The position numbers and the translations under genes were made by a program. Below, piece by piece: positions 2,738 through 9,616 of a stretch of DNA of 64,000 nucleotides. The stretch covers positions 1 to 64,000 of the IMG/VR virus record IMGVR_UViG_2912740531_000001. One strand, 5' to 3'. Source of the DNA: a virus. Taxonomy: Duplodnaviria > Caudoviricetes. Position 1 is the stretch's first letter; every line of letters begins with the position of its first letter. Under the pieces are notes generated by a model. The model ran no database searches, had not been told where the DNA came from, and was given only the letters and a program-made list of their open reading frames with translations.

Positions 2738-3107
2738 CCAGAGTGAGCGCTTGGAGCGGGCGCTGGAAGGCGGGCCCATCCCTCATGATGAGGAGACCCG
2801 CCAGATGCTGGCTGCCGCGGGTGCACTGCATCCCGGCTACCAACGCAGTCCCTCGCGGGTGCGCGATGCCAGAGAGGCAATGCTCCGTGCGTACGCGCGT
2901 ACCCAGAACGCGCAGGAGACGCGGGAGGACGCGGGATCCGGTGACGGCCTGGACGAGCCGGAGCTTCATCGTGAGGAGATTGAACTGCCCGACGGTGGGC
3001 AGCTCGTGCTCACGGACATCGAAGACATCACACCGGAGCGTGCCCAGAAGATGGCCGACCGCGTCGCTCGCATCCTGAACAGCAAGGAAAGAGACCACCA
3101 GAGTTGA
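2721..3107 (+). CDS. Putative anti-sigma factor (RsbN N-terminus-like)
   Basis: ATG at 2721 overlaps the sigma 3' end. Helical N-terminus RRADQSERLERAL...MLAAAGAL...RVRDAREAML is reminiscent of anti-sigma domains. Confidence 0.55.
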   Translation: MSRRADQSERLERALEGGPIPHDEETRQMLAAAGALHPGYQRSPSRVRDAREAMLRAYARTQNAQETREDAGSGDGLDEPELHREEIELPDGGQLVLTDIEDITPERAQKMADRVARILNSKERDHQS

Positions 3108-5329: not shown

Positions 5330-6388
5330 TCAGGCGAACAGGCGCTTCCAGGTCTCGGGCCCCGGGATGCCGTCGGCGTCGCTACCGGTCCAGCCCTGGG
5401 CACGCTGGAAGGCCTCGACGTTCTTGCGGTCGGCGTCGGACCACCTCGGGCCAGGTCCCTGGGTGTAGAACCTGCCGAAGCCCTTCCGGACGAGCTGCTG
5501 CCCGAGCAGGGTGACGCTCGCGTTGCTCTTGCCGGGCCCGAACTTGCCCCGGCCCGGGAACGGGGGCGTCGGCTTCGCCGTGACCTTGGACGGCAGGGTG
5601 CCCAGCAGCTTCTTGAGGGACGTCTTGCCGGGGACACCGTCCGCCGCCGTGCCGGAGTAGCCGAGGGACTCCTGGAAGTCCTGGTAGTTCAGGGTGTCGG
5701 CGTCCGTCCACGTGGGGCCCGGCCCGCTGGTGTAGTGCCTGCTGAACCCCTTCCTCACCAGGGCCTGGCCGACCTTGGTGACCTGAGTGCCCTTGGCGCC
5801 GTAGCCGTACGCCAGGCCGTTGATGGTGACCTGGTAGCGGGCGGCCCCGGAGCTCGAGCCGCTGCCCGGGAGAGAGCCGCCCGGGTCCGGCGCCGCGTCG
5901 TAGTCTCCGGCCGGCATGCCCGCCTGCACCCAGGTGTAGAGCCTGGTGCCGGGGCACGCGGTTGCGAACCCGTCGCGGTGACCGCGCTTGGCCAGCGTGC
6001 GTCCGGTCTTCCTGCACGCCTCCTCGTACAGGGCACGGCACGCGGCGAGCGCCTTGGCGCTGGGCGCCTGGTCGCCGCCGATGGCGATCTGGACACCGAT
6101 GCCGCTGATGTTGTGGTTGGGGCAGTGGGCGCCCTGCAGGGTCCAGCCCCGACCCTCGTAGATGTTCCCGGCCTGGTCGATGACGAAGTTGTAGCCGACG
6201 CCGGACCAGCCCTGGTTGATGTGCCCGGCCTCGATGGCGCGCATGATGGCGTAGCCGGTGCGGGTGATCGGGGTGCCGCCGTCGTAGTGGACGAAGAACT
6301 CGGTGCGCTTCGACAGCGAAACGGTGGCCGGGGCGCCGTTCCAGGGCTTAGCGCCCCAGGTGGCGCGAGAGATGATCTTGATGGTCAT
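5330..6388 (-). CDS. Endolysin: PGRP-like N-acetylmuramoyl-L-alanine amidase with two peptidoglycan-binding repeats
   Basis: HYDG, GYNFVI...YEGRGW, GAHC and GHRD..ATACPG motifs; duplicated C-terminal ...GPGPxWxDAD...FQ...ADGxPG repeats. Confidence 0.92.
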   Translation of the reverse strand: MTIKIISRATWGAKPWNGAPATVSLSKRTEFFVHYDGGTPITRTGYAIMRAIEAGHINQGWSGVGYNFVIDQAGNIYEGRGWTLQGAHCPNHNISGIGVQIAIGGDQAPSAKALAACRALYEEACRKTGRTLAKRGHRDGFATACPGTRLYTWVQAGMPAGDYDAAPDPGGSLPGSGSSSGAARYQVTINGLAYGYGAKGTQVTKVGQALVRKGFSRHYTSGPGPTWTDADTLNYQDFQESLGYSGTAADGVPGKTSLKKLLGTLPSKVTAKPTPPFPGRGKFGPGKSNASVTLLGQQLVRKGFGRFYTQGPGPRWSDADRKNVEAFQRAQGWTGSDADGIPGPETWKRLFA

Positions 6389-6428
6389 GGGGGGTGGTGC
6401 CTTCCGCTCTGGTGATCAAGTGGAGGGC

Positions 6429-6458
6429 ACCGTGCAGGGTGCGACTGGTTAACGTCGC
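6429..6458 (-). promoter_or_regulatory. Late-type promoter motif (endolysin)
   Basis: GCGACG-TTAAC..N18-CACGGT. Confidence 0.7.
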
Positions 6459-6528
6459 GTGCTGCGCCTACCGGCCTTGGAGAACACCGGTGCAGCGGTC
6501 ATTGGCTAGATTGATCTTGAGCGGTGGA

Positions 6529-6555
6529 AGGGCCCGTTATCGTGATACGGGCCCT
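6529..6555 (-). terminator. Hairpin downstream of the interrupted small gene
   Basis: AGGGCCCGT-N9-ACGGGCCCT. Confidence 0.6.
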
Positions 6556-6710
6556 TCGCGATCGGATGCTAGTCAGCGCTGGTGCTCGAACCAGAGGACT
6601 AGGTGTGCCGTCACATGAGGTTGGTGCCACGACCGCGATCACCGCGCAGCCGGTGCCCCGGTTTCCGGCTTTCCCCCTGCACTGCCGGGTCGGCTGGCTA
6701 CCGTCTTCGT

Positions 6711-7118
6711 ATGACGTGGTGGCAGGCGGCCCTTTGGGGCCTGGCCGGCGGAGGAGCGGCCTCGGTGCTGTCCTTCACGACGGCCGTAGTGTCGTCCGGG
6801 TACTCCTGGCCCTGGAGGAAGAAGATAGACGCCGGGGAACCGTCTGGGGAGTTGGGGCCGCGGCTGTTCGTGCTGGCCGCCGGGGCCGTGCTGGGCGCCG
6901 CGGTTGCGGCCGCCGCGCACGACCAGATCAGCGGCCCCTGGCCAGCCTTCATCTTCGGCGTCGGTGCCCCCGCCACACTCCGCGGCCTGCTCTCCGGCGT
7001 CGAGGTCGCCCCCCGCACCTACCCCGCGCCACCCCCTGGGCCCGCGTCGGCCTCGTCCGCGCCGCGCACGGCCCTGCCCGCCCCCGGCCCGGGAGAGGTC
7101 CGTGAAGACGCACCCTGA
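6711..7118 (+). CDS. Small multi-pass membrane protein
   Basis: Hydrophobic segments (WWQAALWGLAGG..., LFVLAAGAVLGAAVAAA, WPAFIFGVGA); overlaps the next gene. Confidence 0.7.
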   Translation: MTWWQAALWGLAGGGAASVLSFTTAVVSSGYSWPWRKKIDAGEPSGELGPRLFVLAAGAVLGAAVAAAAHDQISGPWPAFIFGVGAPATLRGLLSGVEVAPRTYPAPPPGPASASSAPRTALPAPGPGEVREDAP

Positions 7119-8037
7119 CACCCCGCTCGGCCGCATCGCGCTGGCCGCCCGCCCCGCCCGGCCGTGGCTGCACATCCGCGCCTCCCGCTGGTGGCGCCGT
7201 GTCCTGCTCGCCGCCGGCGCGCGGCAAGCGCCGTGGGCGGGGAAGAACTGGCGCGGCGCAGACCTGCGCGGCGCGGACCTGGCCGGCGTGGACCTGACCG
7301 ACGCGAACTTGACCCGCGTGTTCCTGAGCGGCGCGGACCTGACCTACGCGTTCCTGAGCGGCGCGAACCTGACCCACGCGGAAGTGCGCGGCGCGAACCT
7401 GAGCCACGCGGACGTGCGCGAAGCGAACCTGACCGACGCGGACCTGACCGATGCGGACCTGCGCAGCGCGAACCTGCGTGGCGCGAACCTGCCCCGTGCG
7501 TTCCTGCGTGGCGCGAACCTGCGCCGTGCGAACCTGGCCGACGTGGACCTGGCCGGCGCGAACCTGATCGACGCGAAGCTGCGCGGCGCGAACCTGCGCG
7601 GCGCGAACCTGACCCGCGCGAACCTGGACGGCGCGAACCTGAACGGCGCGAACCTGATCCGCGTGGACCTGCGCGGCGCGTTCCTGCGTGGCGCGAACCT
7701 GCCCCGTGCGTTCCTGAGCGGCGCGGACCTGACCCGCGCGGACCTGGACGGCGCGGACCTGGACGGCGCGGACCTGACCGACACGTACTTGACTGGCGCG
7801 AAACTGACCGGCGCGAACCTGCGCGGCGCGGACGTGAGCGGCGCGAACCTGGCCGACGTGAACCTGGCCGACGCGGACTTTGTGGATTTGACTTGGTCAG
7901 AGCAGACAATTTGGCCCGATACGCTTGCCGTGCAGATGCGGGCGCGCTCTGTACCGCTCGGGAGCGGCAAGTGGCGTGTGCAAGGGGCTGGCAACAGCGG
8001 AGCCGACCTGGAAGCACCGCCTCTGCCCATGCGTTGA
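7102..8037 (+). CDS. Pentapeptide repeat protein
   Basis: About 40 tandem A[DN]Lxx repeats (15 bp DNA period, ~7255-7880). Confidence 0.92.
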   Translation: MKTHPDTPLGRIALAARPARPWLHIRASRWWRRVLLAAGARQAPWAGKNWRGADLRGADLAGVDLTDANLTRVFLSGADLTYAFLSGANLTHAEVRGANLSHADVREANLTDADLTDADLRSANLRGANLPRAFLRGANLRRANLADVDLAGANLIDAKLRGANLRGANLTRANLDGANLNGANLIRVDLRGAFLRGANLPRAFLSGADLTRADLDGADLDGADLTDTYLTGAKLTGANLRGADVSGANLADVNLADADFVDLTWSEQTIWPDTLAVQMRARSVPLGSGKWRVQGAGNSGADLEAPPLPMR

Positions 8038-8971
8038 CGGCGACCACCACCGGCCTGTGACAGCCGAGACCGCGGCGTGCCCGCGTGCCGTGGCACCAAC
8101 CTCATGAGACGACACAACTGATACGGAGGCTGACGGCACCGCTACCGACGCCGTACGAGGCATCCCGGATCAAATTGCTCTTCACATCCTGGCCGTGCTG
8201 CGCAGCCTTCCGTGCAGCCCACACGCGCAGGCCTCGGATCCAACGCATCCATGGATGCGTTGGGGTGGGGGCATTGCTAGGCTTGCTCACGGTGTTCCCT
8301 TCACTTCCTTTCACTACCTGATTGGGTGGGGCATCACGCAGAGAGCCCCCTGACGCTGGCCTGAGAAACTCGCGTTATGGCGGGGCTCCTGCTGTTTCAG
8401 CAGTGTAGTGAGCGGCGAAGCCAGCGTGGTCAGTCGGCGTAACACAACTACCCTCTGCGCTCCTGACTGTGACGTTGCGTCACCTTTTTCGCGTTGATTC
8501 GCGACGCAACACGGCGGAACGCAGCTCTCCATACTTCTGCTGTGCGTCTCGTCACACTTGGCGGGGCCCTCCTCCTGTGGCGGGACGACGTACACCGTAG
8601 GGAGTCGGATCGGCCACCGCACAAAGCCGCCGCCACTCTCGGCCACCAGCTACCTTTTCGCACGTCACAGCGGGGGAGTAGCGGCGAGTTTCATCTAGTT
8701 ACCGCGAGGGAGCGAACTGAGGCCAACTAGAGCTAGGTAGGGTCAACTGCGGTTTTCCAGAATGGCTGAATCGCGTAGGAAAGCCTCATAGTGAGACCCC
8801 GGGGGTGACCGTGAACACCTCGTCTGCGTCCCACTCGCCGAGAACCTCGTCAAAGTGCCTGGATTCAGCATGTTTTCGCGGCGCCACGCGTACTCTGCCT
8901 CGCAGGCCTAGGCGTCGGGTCAGAAGACCGTTCGGGCGTCACAGAGCTGACCTGTCAATAGCGTCTCCTCG

Positions 8972-9616
8972 TCATCCGTCGACCACCTCGGCGTCGACGA
9001 CGTCGCCGTTCTCGAGCTGTGGCGGGTACTCCACCGCGAACAGGCTGCGGTCTAGGCGCTCTGCGAGGGCGGCCAGGTCGACGACCTGTTCCTCGGGGCC
9101 GACGGGTACGTCGCCCAGGCCGTTGATCTCGACCGCGACGACAGCGTCTTTGCCGTAGTGCTCGCGGTGCTGGCGCTCCAAATACCAGGCGTCGGCGCGC
9201 CAGTCGGGCGATGTGCGGTCCTCTACGGTCTCCTCGACGATCTCGCCGGTCACGGAGTCGCGGAACCGGCGGGTGGTGACCTTGGTGACGATGCCGCCGT
9301 CGGCGACGCGGCGGATGTTCATCATGGCGCGCGCGGCCGCCGTGGCGCGGGCGGTGCGGACTTTCTCGTACAGGGCTGCGTACTCCTCCTCGTCGGGGTC
9401 CGGGTCTTCGCCTGCCTCGCGGGCTTCGACTTCGGCGCGTCCGCGGGCCATCCACGCCAGGAAGCTCGAGCGGGAGACCCCGGCCATCTCGGCGGCCAGC
9501 TCGACGGCCACGCCCGTGCGCGAGGCGCCGACGAGGCGCGCCTCGACCTCTTCGGAGAGCAGGCGTGGGCGACCGCTGCGGCTCTGCGGCCGGCGTGCCT
9601 TGCGTCGGGTGGACAT
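8972..9616 (-). CDS. Terminase small subunit-like protein
   Basis: GRPRLL + HTH (AAEMAGVSRSSFLAW) and the DWRADAWYLER motif typical of TerS-like proteins. Confidence 0.7.
   Translation of the reverse strand: MSTRRKARRPQSRSGRPRLLSEEVEARLVGASRTGVAVELAAEMAGVSRSSFLAWMARGRAEVEAREAGEDPDPDEEEYAALYEKVRTARATAAARAMMNIRRVADGGIVTKVTTRRFRDSVTGEIVEETVEDRTSPDWRADAWYLERQHREHYGKDAVVAVEINGLGDVPVGPEEQVVDLAALAERLDRSLFAVEYPPQLENGDVVDAEVVDG

What the first reader, a model, noticed from the sequence alone, without database searches (positions are those of the whole stretch)
6573..8290. Recombinase-less 1.5 kb insert with 28 bp inverted repeats and a GG core precisely splits a small gene
Seen: TGTGCCGTCACATGAGGTTGGTGCCACG (6604-6631) is inverted at 8089-8116 (26/28). 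GG flanks both ends (6602-6603 and 8125-8126), and the right IR is 8 bp subterminal. Removing the segment plus one GG restores a 64 aa ORF ending GAVSLLVLWFEHQR*, followed by a hairpin. The cargo is only a membrane protein and a pentapeptide-repeat protein. Known: dinucleotide cores are used by serine recombinases/IS607 and by IS110/IS1111 (the latter with subterminal IRs). Inference: a non-autonomous cassette mobilised in trans, possibly excisable and so acting as a gene switch.
Basis: partly seen in the sequence, partly recalled or inferred. Interest (0 to 1): 0.72.

Follow-up and report, generated by a model that had tools for sequence, protein, structure and literature searches.

The report
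Transposase-less IS481 cargo cassette in prophage
A 1.5-kb piece of mobile DNA that has lost its own transposase and carries a membrane-protein plus pentapeptide-repeat gene pair has landed inside a small conserved gene of a Streptomyces prophage; it is a new example of a known kind of element, not a new recombination system.

Summary
Window 6604-8116 is bracketed by 28-nt inverted repeats (26/28; none expected by chance). Deleting 1523 bp rejoins a 72-codon minus-strand ORF. That ORF is real: a full HMMER search found small homologues, and 19 of 19 uninterrupted Streptomyces copies examined end with the same C-terminal motif and length, followed by a hairpin.

The repeats are the TGT...ACA ends of an IS481-family (DDE) element. 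The same repeats bracket other cargos in about 24 actinomycete genomes and 10 large plasmids. Relatives still carry an IS481 transposase, one of them intact, and show perfect 6-bp NCTAGN target duplications. The "GG core" is the last two bases of the target hexamer ACTAGG. The "8-bp subterminal" stretch is the right-hand copy of that hexamer, now 10 nt long.

The insert is therefore a mobile insertion cassette derived from an IS481-type cargo transposon. It sits in a Gilgamesh-like prophage between the terS and lysin A genes. No cognate transposase lies in this genome; a 49%-identical IS481-family IS is present in nine copies. Nothing supports reversible excision as a gene switch. Verdict: new member of a known kind, modest interest.

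The parts
6604..8116 (+). Whole cassette (1513 bp): IRL, leader, two cargo genes, spacer, IRR; no transposase
   Evidence: repeats; no transposase; 81% identical copy in G207 covering window 6596-8061
6604..6631 (+). Left terminal inverted repeat, TGTGCCGTCACATGAGGTTGGTGCCACG
   Evidence: same 28-mer at element ends in 24 actinomycete loci, with unrelated DNA outside it; 24/28 to the IRL of the transposase-bearing relative L100
8089..8116 (-). Right terminal inverted repeat (26/28 to the left one). Read outward it spells ...VAPTS-stop, the relic C-terminus of the ancestral transposase
   Evidence: (ORF fragments ending ...VAPTS at repeats of relatives)
6598..6603 (+). Left target-site copy ACTAGG (NCTAGN)
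   Evidence: 13 of 31 left flanks have exact CTAG, 24 of 31 at least 3 of 4
8117..8126 (+).
   Evidence: the expectation comes from 6-bp duplications in relatives
6632..6710 (+). 79-nt leader between IRL and the first cargo gene; conserved in the G207 copy; presumed cargo promoter region (inferred)
   Evidence: no sigma-70 consensus found
6711..7118 (+). Cargo gene 1: 135-aa membrane-type protein of unknown family
   Evidence: GC3 0.85-0.93 in this frame; 88% aa identity in G207; adjacent to the PRP gene in 5 genomes
7102..8037 (+). Cargo gene 2: 311-aa pentapeptide-repeat protein; its GTG start overlaps gene 1 by 17 nt
   Evidence: PF00805, 238 bits; Qnr model 87 bits, below the 240 cut-off
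8126..8314 (-). 5' part (63 codons) of the interrupted small gene
6573..6602 (-). 3' part (9 codons plus stop) of the interrupted small gene
   Evidence: codon-by-codon match to the tails of homologues
6535..6565 (-). Hairpin after the small gene's stop (terminator-like); the same layout is seen in homologues
6466..8974 (.). 2.5-kb variable block between terS and the lysin A leader: small gene with its surroundings plus the cassette. Absent from related phages
5330..6388 (-). Context: lysin A gene of the Gilgamesh-like prophage
8975..9616 (-). Context: terminase small subunit gene

Best explanation
Window 6604-8116 is a mobile insertion cassette: the transposase-less derivative of an IS481-family (DDE) cargo transposon. 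Such elements consist of IRL, passenger genes, transposase and IRR. They insert at NCTAGN and duplicate that hexamer. Here the transposase is gone and two nearly identical IRL-type ends bracket a translationally coupled gene pair, a membrane protein and a pentapeptide-repeat protein. The pair exists as an ordinary chromosomal operon in other Streptomyces. The cassette inserted at a CCTAGT (plus strand ACTAGG) created by a CTA leucine codon in the C-terminal tail of a small conserved gene. That gene lies in a variable block between terS and lysin A of a Gilgamesh-like prophage. The insertion cut off the last 9 codons. Shown: the ends, the family relationship, the target hexamer and the interrupted gene. 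Inferred: that it arrived by IS481-type transposition supplied in trans; that it is now stranded, because no cognate transposase is in this genome; and that the cargo is expressed from its own leader as a prophage passenger ('moron').
For: (1) The repeats are real and terminal. (2) An exact 18-nt repeat core occurs in 32 loci of 185,579 species genomes. In 24 actinomycete loci the full 28-mer is conserved while the DNA outside it differs. (3) A second arm was found in 8 of these loci, bracketing unrelated cargos without a transposase: MerR plus methyltransferase, TetR plus MFS, and hypothetical genes. The MerR-methyltransferase cassette is 93.6-95.7% identical in 6 species with 6 different flanks. 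(4) Flanking hexamers match at 5-6 of 6 in 6 of these 8. (5) L029 and L035 keep decayed IS481-type transposase remnants next to the repeat. (6) The top 7 tblastn places for that remnant, found among 150 further genomes, gave 6 elements laid out IRL-cargo-transposase-IRR. Five of them have perfect 6-bp duplications (GCTAGG, GCTAAC, CCTAGG, CCTAGA, GCTAGC). L100 has an intact 356-aa transposase (NF033577, 329 bits against a cut-off of 224). Its IRL is 24/28 identical to the window's, whereas L100's own two ends share only 20/28. (7) Published IS481-family elements show TGT-type repeats, NCTAGN hexamer repeats and cargo genes (PMC6794481 and PMC2516522, passages). (8) The interrupted gene is real, and the reconstructed tail matches homologues in length and residues. 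(9) The cargo pair is adjacent and overlapping in 5 other genomes without repeats.
Against: The right-hand target copy is ACTGATACGG, not ACTAGG: 3 of 6 in register and 4 nt too long, although the repeats themselves differ at only 2 of 28. No orthologous empty site was found in Gilgamesh, in 19 IMG/VR relatives or in 60 relatives of the host. The only other copy of this cargo cassette (G207) has a left repeat but no right repeat and no transposase within 13.6 kb. No repeat-like sequence occurs elsewhere in the host genome at up to 6 substitutions. In 5 other host genomes the repeats occur only once as a pair, so there is no sign of amplification. No autonomous element with identical repeats was found. 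Trans-mobilisation is inferred, not shown.
Confidence: 0.87

Rival explanations
1. One reading: a cassette moved by a site-specific recombinase that crosses over at a GG dinucleotide core (serine recombinase/IS607-like, or IS110/IS1111-like with a subterminal repeat). It would be excisable and act as a reversible switch of the small gene.
For: GG lies at 6602-6603 and 8125-8126, and deleting the DNA between them plus one GG restores the gene exactly.
Against: In relatives the repeats are terminal and are flanked by 6-bp NCTAGN duplications, not by a conserved dinucleotide. Relatives encode IS481-family DDE transposases, and no serine or DEDD enzyme was seen. The left GG is simply the end of ACTAGG. 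No recombinase lies in the window's element. No empty site or second copy was found.
Confidence: 0.03
2. The cassette is still active here: the nine-copy resident IS481-family IS of the host genome supplies a transposase that recognises the cassette ends.
For: The host has 9 identical copies of a 1081-bp IS481-family IS. Eight of the 9 have perfect NCTAGN duplications, so the IS was recently active. Its ends share 18-20 of 28 positions with the cassette ends, including the TGT tip and the inner GAGGTTGGTGnCACG block. The IS's own two ends share only 21/28.
Against: Its transposase is only 49% identical to the L100-type enzyme. The outer half of the repeats differs. There is only one copy of the cassette in the genome. 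Nothing was tested.
Confidence: 0.15
3. The cassette never transposed into the phage. It hit the small gene in a chromosome or plasmid, and the phage later captured the whole ~2.5-kb block (small gene plus cassette) by illegitimate recombination at the terS-lysin A hotspot.
For: The whole block 6466-8974 is missing from related phages. 11 of 19 have terS followed by the lysin leader within 122 nt, and others hold different inserts of 0.5-1 kb. Homologues of the small gene are chromosomal, often near chromosome ends. These repeats were found in 0 of 50,697 phage records and in 0 IMG/VR contigs.
Against: Nothing decides the order of events. The block's flanks have no match in 400 + 60 genomes searched. 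This rival concerns history only and leaves the identity of the element unchanged.
Confidence: 0.35

Closest known systems
TnRErm46 / ISRe46 of Rhodococcus equi (IS481-family cargo transposon; PMC6794481, passages read)
   Same: Actinobacterial. Repeat of the same type (published TGTTGCGGGTCATGACGTTG against TGTGCCGTCnCATGAGGTTGG here). NCTAGN hexamer target and duplication. Cargo (a regulator plus membrane or enzyme genes) placed between IRL and a transposase at the right end, as in relatives L100, L099, L096 and L029.
   Different: The window's element has no transposase at all, is 1.5 kb rather than 6.9 kb, carries no resistance gene, has two IRL-type ends, and sits in a prophage.
Mobile insertion cassettes: MIC231 of Bacillus cereus, mic-qnrD and the qnrS2 MIC (PMC3913671 passages read; PMC2600179 and PMC5444012 abstracts in search listings)
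   Same: Two inverted repeats bracket passenger genes, no transposase is inside, and movement is presumed to be in trans. mic-qnrD is 1,519 bp and also carries a pentapeptide-repeat gene.
   Different: Different IS families (IS231/IS4 for MIC231; unknown for the qnr MICs), different hosts and 2-bp duplications. The pentapeptide protein here fails the Qnr model (87 bits against a cut-off of 240).
IS481 and ISLxc2 (PMC2516522, passages read)
   Same: TGT-type repeats (ISLxc2: TGTGTTTCTCAGGGACGTTGGT), NCTAGN duplication, and a transposase reading frame that ends in the repeat or target.
   Different: Those are plain ~1.1-kb insertion sequences with a transposase and no cargo.

Membership tests
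IS481 family (as a derivative) | Terminal inverted repeats beginning 5'-TGT and ending ACA-3' | tested here: met
   6604 TGTG... and ...CACA 8116. Published IS481-family repeats are of the same form (PMC6794481, PMC2516522, PMC10045372, passages).
IS481 family (as a derivative) | 6-bp target duplication NCTAGN | tested here: inconclusive
   Window: left ACTAGG fits; the right copy reads ACTGATACGG. Relatives: perfect in 5 of 6 transposase-associated elements; 5-6 of 6 positions in 6 of 8 transposase-less ones.
IS481 family (as a derivative) | IS481-family DDE transposase gene (NF033577; rve/rve_3 with LZ_Tnp_IS481) | tested here: not met
   None in the element or the window. Present and intact in relative L100 with 24/28-identical IRL. 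Decayed in L029 and L035. Hence a derivative, not an autonomous member.
IS481 family (as a derivative) | Transposase frame terminating inside the right repeat or target | tested here: met
   Present as a relic. Both repeats read outward as ...VAPTS-stop, the C-terminus seen on transposase remnants of relatives.
Mobile insertion cassette (MIC) | Two inverted repeats bracketing non-transposase genes, with no transposase inside or nearby | tested here: met
   The nearest IS481-family copy in the genome is about 537 kb away. Definition from PMC3913671 (passage).
Mobile insertion cassette (MIC) | Target-site duplication showing transposition | tested here: inconclusive
   See the hexamer row above. 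The target hexamer within the interrupted gene is clear, but the right copy is altered.
Mobile insertion cassette (MIC) | Mobilised in trans by a cognate transposase | not testable with these tools
   Indirect only: the sister MerR-methyltransferase cassette is at 6 different sites in 6 species at 94-96% identity.
IS110/IS1111 | DEDD transposase; subterminal or absent repeats; usually no target duplication (features recalled, from no call) | tested here: not met
   No such gene here or in relatives. Repeats are terminal, and 6-bp duplications are present in relatives.
IS607 / serine-recombinase elements | Serine recombinase gene and crossover at a dinucleotide core (features recalled, from no call) | tested here: not met
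   No serine recombinase in the element, the window's cargo or the relatives. Flanks are hexamers, not a conserved dinucleotide.
Qnr/MfpA-type pentapeptide-repeat proteins (cargo) | Score above the curated cut-off of the Qnr or MfpA models | tested here: not met
   Qnr 87 bits against 240; MfpA 69 against 360. Generic PF00805 is met at 238 bits.

The most novel reading that the evidence does not exclude
Streptomyces and its relatives harbour an unannotated subgroup of IS481-family elements that works as a shuttle for small two-gene modules. These are usually a regulator plus an effector: MerR-methyltransferase, TetR-MFS, TetR-SDR, WYL-glyoxalase, an ECF sigma factor, a DNA methylase. The transposase-less cassettes would still be moved in trans, would sit on chromosomes and giant linear plasmids, and, as here, can board a 129-kb-class temperate phage that could carry them between hosts. 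The membrane-protein/pentapeptide-repeat pair would then give the lysogen a selectable trait, for example shielding a DNA-binding enzyme such as gyrase or blocking superinfection.
Probability: 0.2. Interest if true: 0.55.

Novelty: new member of a known kind. Interest (0 to 1): 0.35.

Why it matters
The finding puts a name and a mechanism on an insert that looked like a new recombination system. It also exposes a set of IS481-derived cargo cassettes that genome annotation does not flag: on plasmid NZ_CP109116 the sister cassette is annotated only as a MerR regulator and a methyltransferase. These cassettes show how small gene modules can travel among Streptomyces chromosomes, linear plasmids and, in this one case, a prophage. 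In the collections searched this is the only instance of these repeats in a phage context. It also documents a conserved, previously unnamed small-protein family, found in 22 of 400 genomes, one member of which was knocked out by the insertion. None of this challenges current understanding of transposition.

Tried and rejected
(1) My own interim reading that the split ORF was not a gene. It rested on no tblastn hit in phages, no hit in the word-indexed protein search, GC3 of only 0.67-0.72, and the fact that every deletion model gives junction-spanning ORFs on both strands. The exhaustive HMMER search overturned it, and homologues themselves have GC3 of 0.67-0.93.

(2) Orthologous empty site: not found in Gilgamesh, in 60 relatives of the host, in 400 Streptomyces genomes at DNA level, or in 19 IMG/VR relatives.

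(3) Autonomous partner with identical repeats: not found. None of the 24 exact-core loci has an intact transposase. No further repeat copies occur in the host genome or in 5 other host genomes, apart from one extra arm in G429.

(4) Right end of the G207 copy: no repeat and no transposase within 13.6 kb.

(5) Sequencing runs to look for excision or expression: none was listed.

(6) Sigma-70-type promoter scan of 6380-9000: 0 sites. This is uninformative for Streptomyces.

(7) Function of the membrane protein: no Pfam or NCBIfam family, no phage homologue, and only 'hypothetical' clusters in the Atlas at scores below 0.9.

(8) Remnants of the ECF-sigma / 222-aa genes that precede the small gene in some genomes: none in the window.

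(9) Earlier notes of this scan: nothing on record.

(10) Literature: searches found no description of IS481-derived transposase-less cassettes in Streptomyces in the held library. ISfinder and TnCentral could not be consulted.
Full report
**Observation.** TGTGCCGTCACATGAGGTTGGTGCCACG at 6604-6631 recurs inverted at 8089-8116 with 2 mismatches. No such pair arose in 100 shuffles, and the pairing extends to 31 nt at 90%. GG stands at 6602-6603 and 8125-8126. Between the repeats lie two plus-strand genes with strong third-position GC:
- 6711-7118 encodes a 135-aa protein with three hydrophobic stretches and no family.
- 7102-8037 encodes a 311-aa pentapeptide-repeat protein (PF00805, 238 bits). 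Its GTG start overlaps the first gene by 17 nt.

No transposase or recombinase is in the element or anywhere in the window.

**Context.** The window is G000:C1:3954946-4018945 of a 9.96-Mb single-contig Streptomyces genome. From 4711 to at least 50000 it is collinear, at 81-84% identity, with bases 42025-84072 of the 129-kb Streptomyces phage Gilgamesh, so this is a Gilgamesh-like prophage. The insert lies between lysin A (5330-6388, minus strand) and the small terminase subunit (8975-9616, minus strand). Homology to Gilgamesh stops at 6459 and resumes at 8974.

Among 19 related IMG/VR contigs:
- 11 have terS followed by the conserved lysin leader within 122 nt.
- 3 have 0.5-0.7 kb of other DNA there.
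- 5 show no leader match.
- None matches window 6466-6603 or 8117-8826.

The whole 2.5 kb from 6466 to 8974 is therefore a variable block at a hotspot.

**What the repeats are.** The exact 18-nt core was scanned across one genome for each of 185,579 species. It gave 32 loci. In 24 of them (21 Streptomyces, plus Spirillospora, Nocardia and Crossiella) the whole 28-mer is conserved and begins with TGT, while the DNA outside it is unrelated and usually reads nCTAGn. The other 8 have only the core and look like chance.

A second, inverted arm was found in 8 of the 24. It defines elements of 0.8-2.6 kb with different cargos and no working transposase:
- MerR regulator plus methyltransferase (L043, L048, L049, L051; truncated in L028 and L038).
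- TetR plus MFS transporter (L033).
- TetR plus short-chain dehydrogenase plus a frameshifted transposase remnant (L029).
- Hypothetical genes (L025, L041).

The MerR-methyltransferase cassette is 93.6-95.7% identical across six species and has six different flanks. The flanking hexamers agree at 6/6 (L041, L051), 5/6 (L025, L043, L048, L049), 3/6 (L033) and 1/6 (L029). The same repeat also occurs on 10 large Streptomyces plasmids. On a 594-kb linear plasmid the cassette is annotated only as a MerR regulator and a methyltransferase. It occurs in none of 50,697 phage records, and the exact core is in no IMG/VR contig.

**The enzyme family.** The remnant in L029 scores best against the IS481-family transposase model. 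It was used as a query against 150 further Streptomyces genomes, and 19 had matches at E <= 1e-30. I fetched about 12 kb around each of the top seven places. Six show the layout IRL, cargo, transposase, IRR:

| Locus | Length | Flanking hexamers | Transposase |
|---|---|---|---|
| L100 | 2867 bp | GCTAGG / GCTAGG | intact, 356 aa |
| L099 | 2275 bp | GCTAAC / GCTAAC | two aligned pieces |
| L097 | 2090 bp | CCTAGG / CCTAGG | truncated |
| L095 | 2114 bp | CCTAGA / CCTAGA | partial |
| L096 | 2570 bp | GCTAGC / GCTAGC | two aligned pieces |
| L101 | 2249 bp | no agreement (right arm poorly defined) | partial |

In the seventh locus, L098, no IRL was found. L100 carries an intact 356-aa IS481-family transposase (NF033577, 329 bits against a cut-off of 224; rve, rve_3 and LZ_Tnp_IS481 domains) and a DNA methylase as cargo. 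Other cargos are a WYL regulator plus a glyoxalase-type protein, and an ECF sigma factor. The window's repeats are 23-24/28 identical to L100's IRL and 21-23/28 to its IRR, whereas L100's own two ends share 20/28.

Published IS481-family elements of actinobacteria have just these properties:
- TnRErm46 has the repeat TGTTGCGGGTCATGACGTTG, NCTAGN hexamer direct repeats with CTAG as the target, and cargo genes ahead of the transposase (PMC6794481, passages read).
- ISLxc2 has TGTGTTTCTCAGGGACGTTGGT with NCTAGN (PMC2516522, passages read).

Read outward, the window's repeats spell ...VAPTS-stop. The same ending is seen on transposase remnants of relatives, so they carry a relic of the transposase C-terminus.

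**The interrupted gene.** At first I judged the small ORF doubtful, for four reasons:
- No hit in phages.
- No hit in the word-indexed protein search.
- GC3 of only about 0.7.
- Junction-spanning ORFs on both strands under any of three deletion models.

The exhaustive HMMER search reversed this. The 70-aa 5' fragment matches small proteins of 68-97 aa (65% identity, E 6e-13) and one 183-aa call. All end with GSGAVS followed by ten residues of the pattern L/I-L-I-V/L-W-W/F-E-N/H-R-H. The alignment breaks off in the window exactly after GSGAVSL. A profile search found uninterrupted copies in 22 of 400 other Streptomyces genomes. In all 19 loci inspected the tail has the same length, and a strongly folding stretch follows the stop.

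Codon by codon, the window's 5' part (ending at 8126) and 3' part (6602 down to the stop at 6573) line up with those genes. The gene is therefore real and has been cut nine codons before its stop. The hairpin at 6535-6565 (z = -4.0) belongs to it.

**Reading the junction.** At the break the window uses a CTA leucine codon where relatives have CTC or CTG. That creates CCTAGT on the minus strand, which is ACTAGG on the plus strand: an NCTAGN site. The left flank of the cassette is exactly ACTAGG (6598-6603). After the right repeat one expects ACTAGG and then the gene. What is there is ACTGATACGG (8117-8126) and then the gene. The '8-bp subterminal' stretch is that copy carrying 4 extra nt.

This also explains why 1523 bp must be removed to restore the frame, rather than the 1519 bp of element plus one hexamer. 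I cannot explain the 4 extra nt. The repeats have diverged at only 2 of 28 positions, so ordinary point decay is an unlikely cause. A repair scar at the element end is one possibility, and it is pure inference.

**Origin of the cargo.** The membrane-protein/pentapeptide pair is adjacent and overlapping in five other genomes among the 19 loci examined, with 60-88% and 48-65% amino-acid identity. In four of them the homology starts only about 15 nt before the first gene and no repeat is present, so the pair is an ordinary operon that was captured.

The fifth, G207, has the closest copy: 81% nucleotide identity over window 6596-8061. It has the left repeat and the same ACTAGG flank, but no right repeat and no transposase within 13.6 kb. 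ACTAGG also flanks L043, so the shared flank is probably a matter of target preference.

The pentapeptide protein fails the curated Qnr and MfpA models. Its function and that of its partner are unknown. Pentapeptide-repeat genes (qnrD, qnrS2) have been reported inside mobile insertion cassettes before, one of them 1,519 bp long (PMC3913671, passages read).

**Present activity.** The host genome contains no other sequence within 6 substitutions of the repeats and no L100-type transposase. It does hold nine identical copies of a 1081-bp IS481-family IS (NF033577, 320 bits). Eight of the nine have perfect NCTAGN duplications. That transposase is 49% identical to L100's, and its ends share 18-20/28 with the cassette's. 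Cross-mobilisation is conceivable but unsupported. I put it at 0.15 and consider the cassette most likely stranded. No public sequencing run could be listed to look for excision products.

**Verdict.** The proposed mechanism is replaced by a well-supported one: an IS481-family, transposase-less mobile insertion cassette. The 'gene switch' idea has no support. This is a new member of a known kind. Its modest added value is that it reveals an unannotated set of IS481-derived cargo elements in Streptomyces and gives one example inside a prophage.

Noticed in passing
window 8117-8126: The right-hand copy of the target hexamer is 10 nt (ACTGATACGG) instead of ACTAGG, although the adjacent repeats differ at only 2 of 28 positions. 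Possibly a repair scar at the element end; unexplained.
   Followed up: partly
window 6389-6470: A leader of about 75 nt upstream of lysin A is conserved in most of the 19 related phage contigs. It has the form CAGCACGCGACGTTAACC...CCTGCACGGTGCCCTCCAC...GGAGGGCAC, with a stem-loop just before the ATG.
   Followed up: no
window 6466-8974; L001 2623-3655; L102-L120: The terS-lysin A junction is an insertion hotspot in this phage group. It holds 0-122 nt in 11 relatives, 0.5-0.7 kb in 3, two genes (gp86, gp87) in Gilgamesh, and 2.5 kb here.
   Followed up: partly
G000:C1, e.g. 585564-586644 (L069): The host carries nine identical copies of a 1081-bp IS481-family insertion sequence. Eight of the nine have perfect NCTAGN duplications, which points to recent activity.
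   Followed up: yes
L126, L138, L140, L134 (and G149, G314, G174 near chromosome ends): The small-protein family (about 65-75 aa, tail GSGAVTLLILWWETRH, terminator hairpin) is found in 22 of 400 Streptomyces genomes. In L126, L138 and L140 it is the third gene after an ECF-type sigma factor and a conserved ~222-aa protein; L134 has the ~222-aa protein, with any sigma gene beyond the fetched stretch. In G149 it lies in both chromosome ends. No Pfam family was found for the window's copy.
   Followed up: partly
window 8240-8263: A perfect 24-nt palindrome (CCAACGCATCCATGGATGCGTTGG; z -5.3 on the plus strand, -3.5 on the minus strand) lies inside the small gene, over the conserved THPWMRW codons.
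   Followed up: no
L005 2887-2892 (G207): In G207 the TAG of the NCTAGN hexamer next to the left repeat is the stop codon of the upstream ORF, which is open for its last ~54 codons and frameshifted further up. The same arrangement is published for TnRErm46 and parB (PMC6794481).
   Followed up: partly
L028 about 2969-3018 (oriented): One MerR-methyltransferase cassette has a partial tandem duplication of the repeat (two GAGGTTGGTGCCACG blocks 22 nt apart) and is truncated at about 900 bp.
   Followed up: no
window 7161-7900: The pentapeptide-repeat gene is a very regular 15-nt periodic array at the DNA level (35 overlapping copies reported). Its protein has diverged far more from the G207 copy (65%) than the partner membrane protein has (88%).
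   Followed up: no
L122 (NZ_CP109116.1 96780-98054): The sister MerR-methyltransferase cassette sits on a 594-kb linear plasmid and is annotated only as two ordinary genes. Elements of this type are invisible in current annotation.
   Followed up: partly
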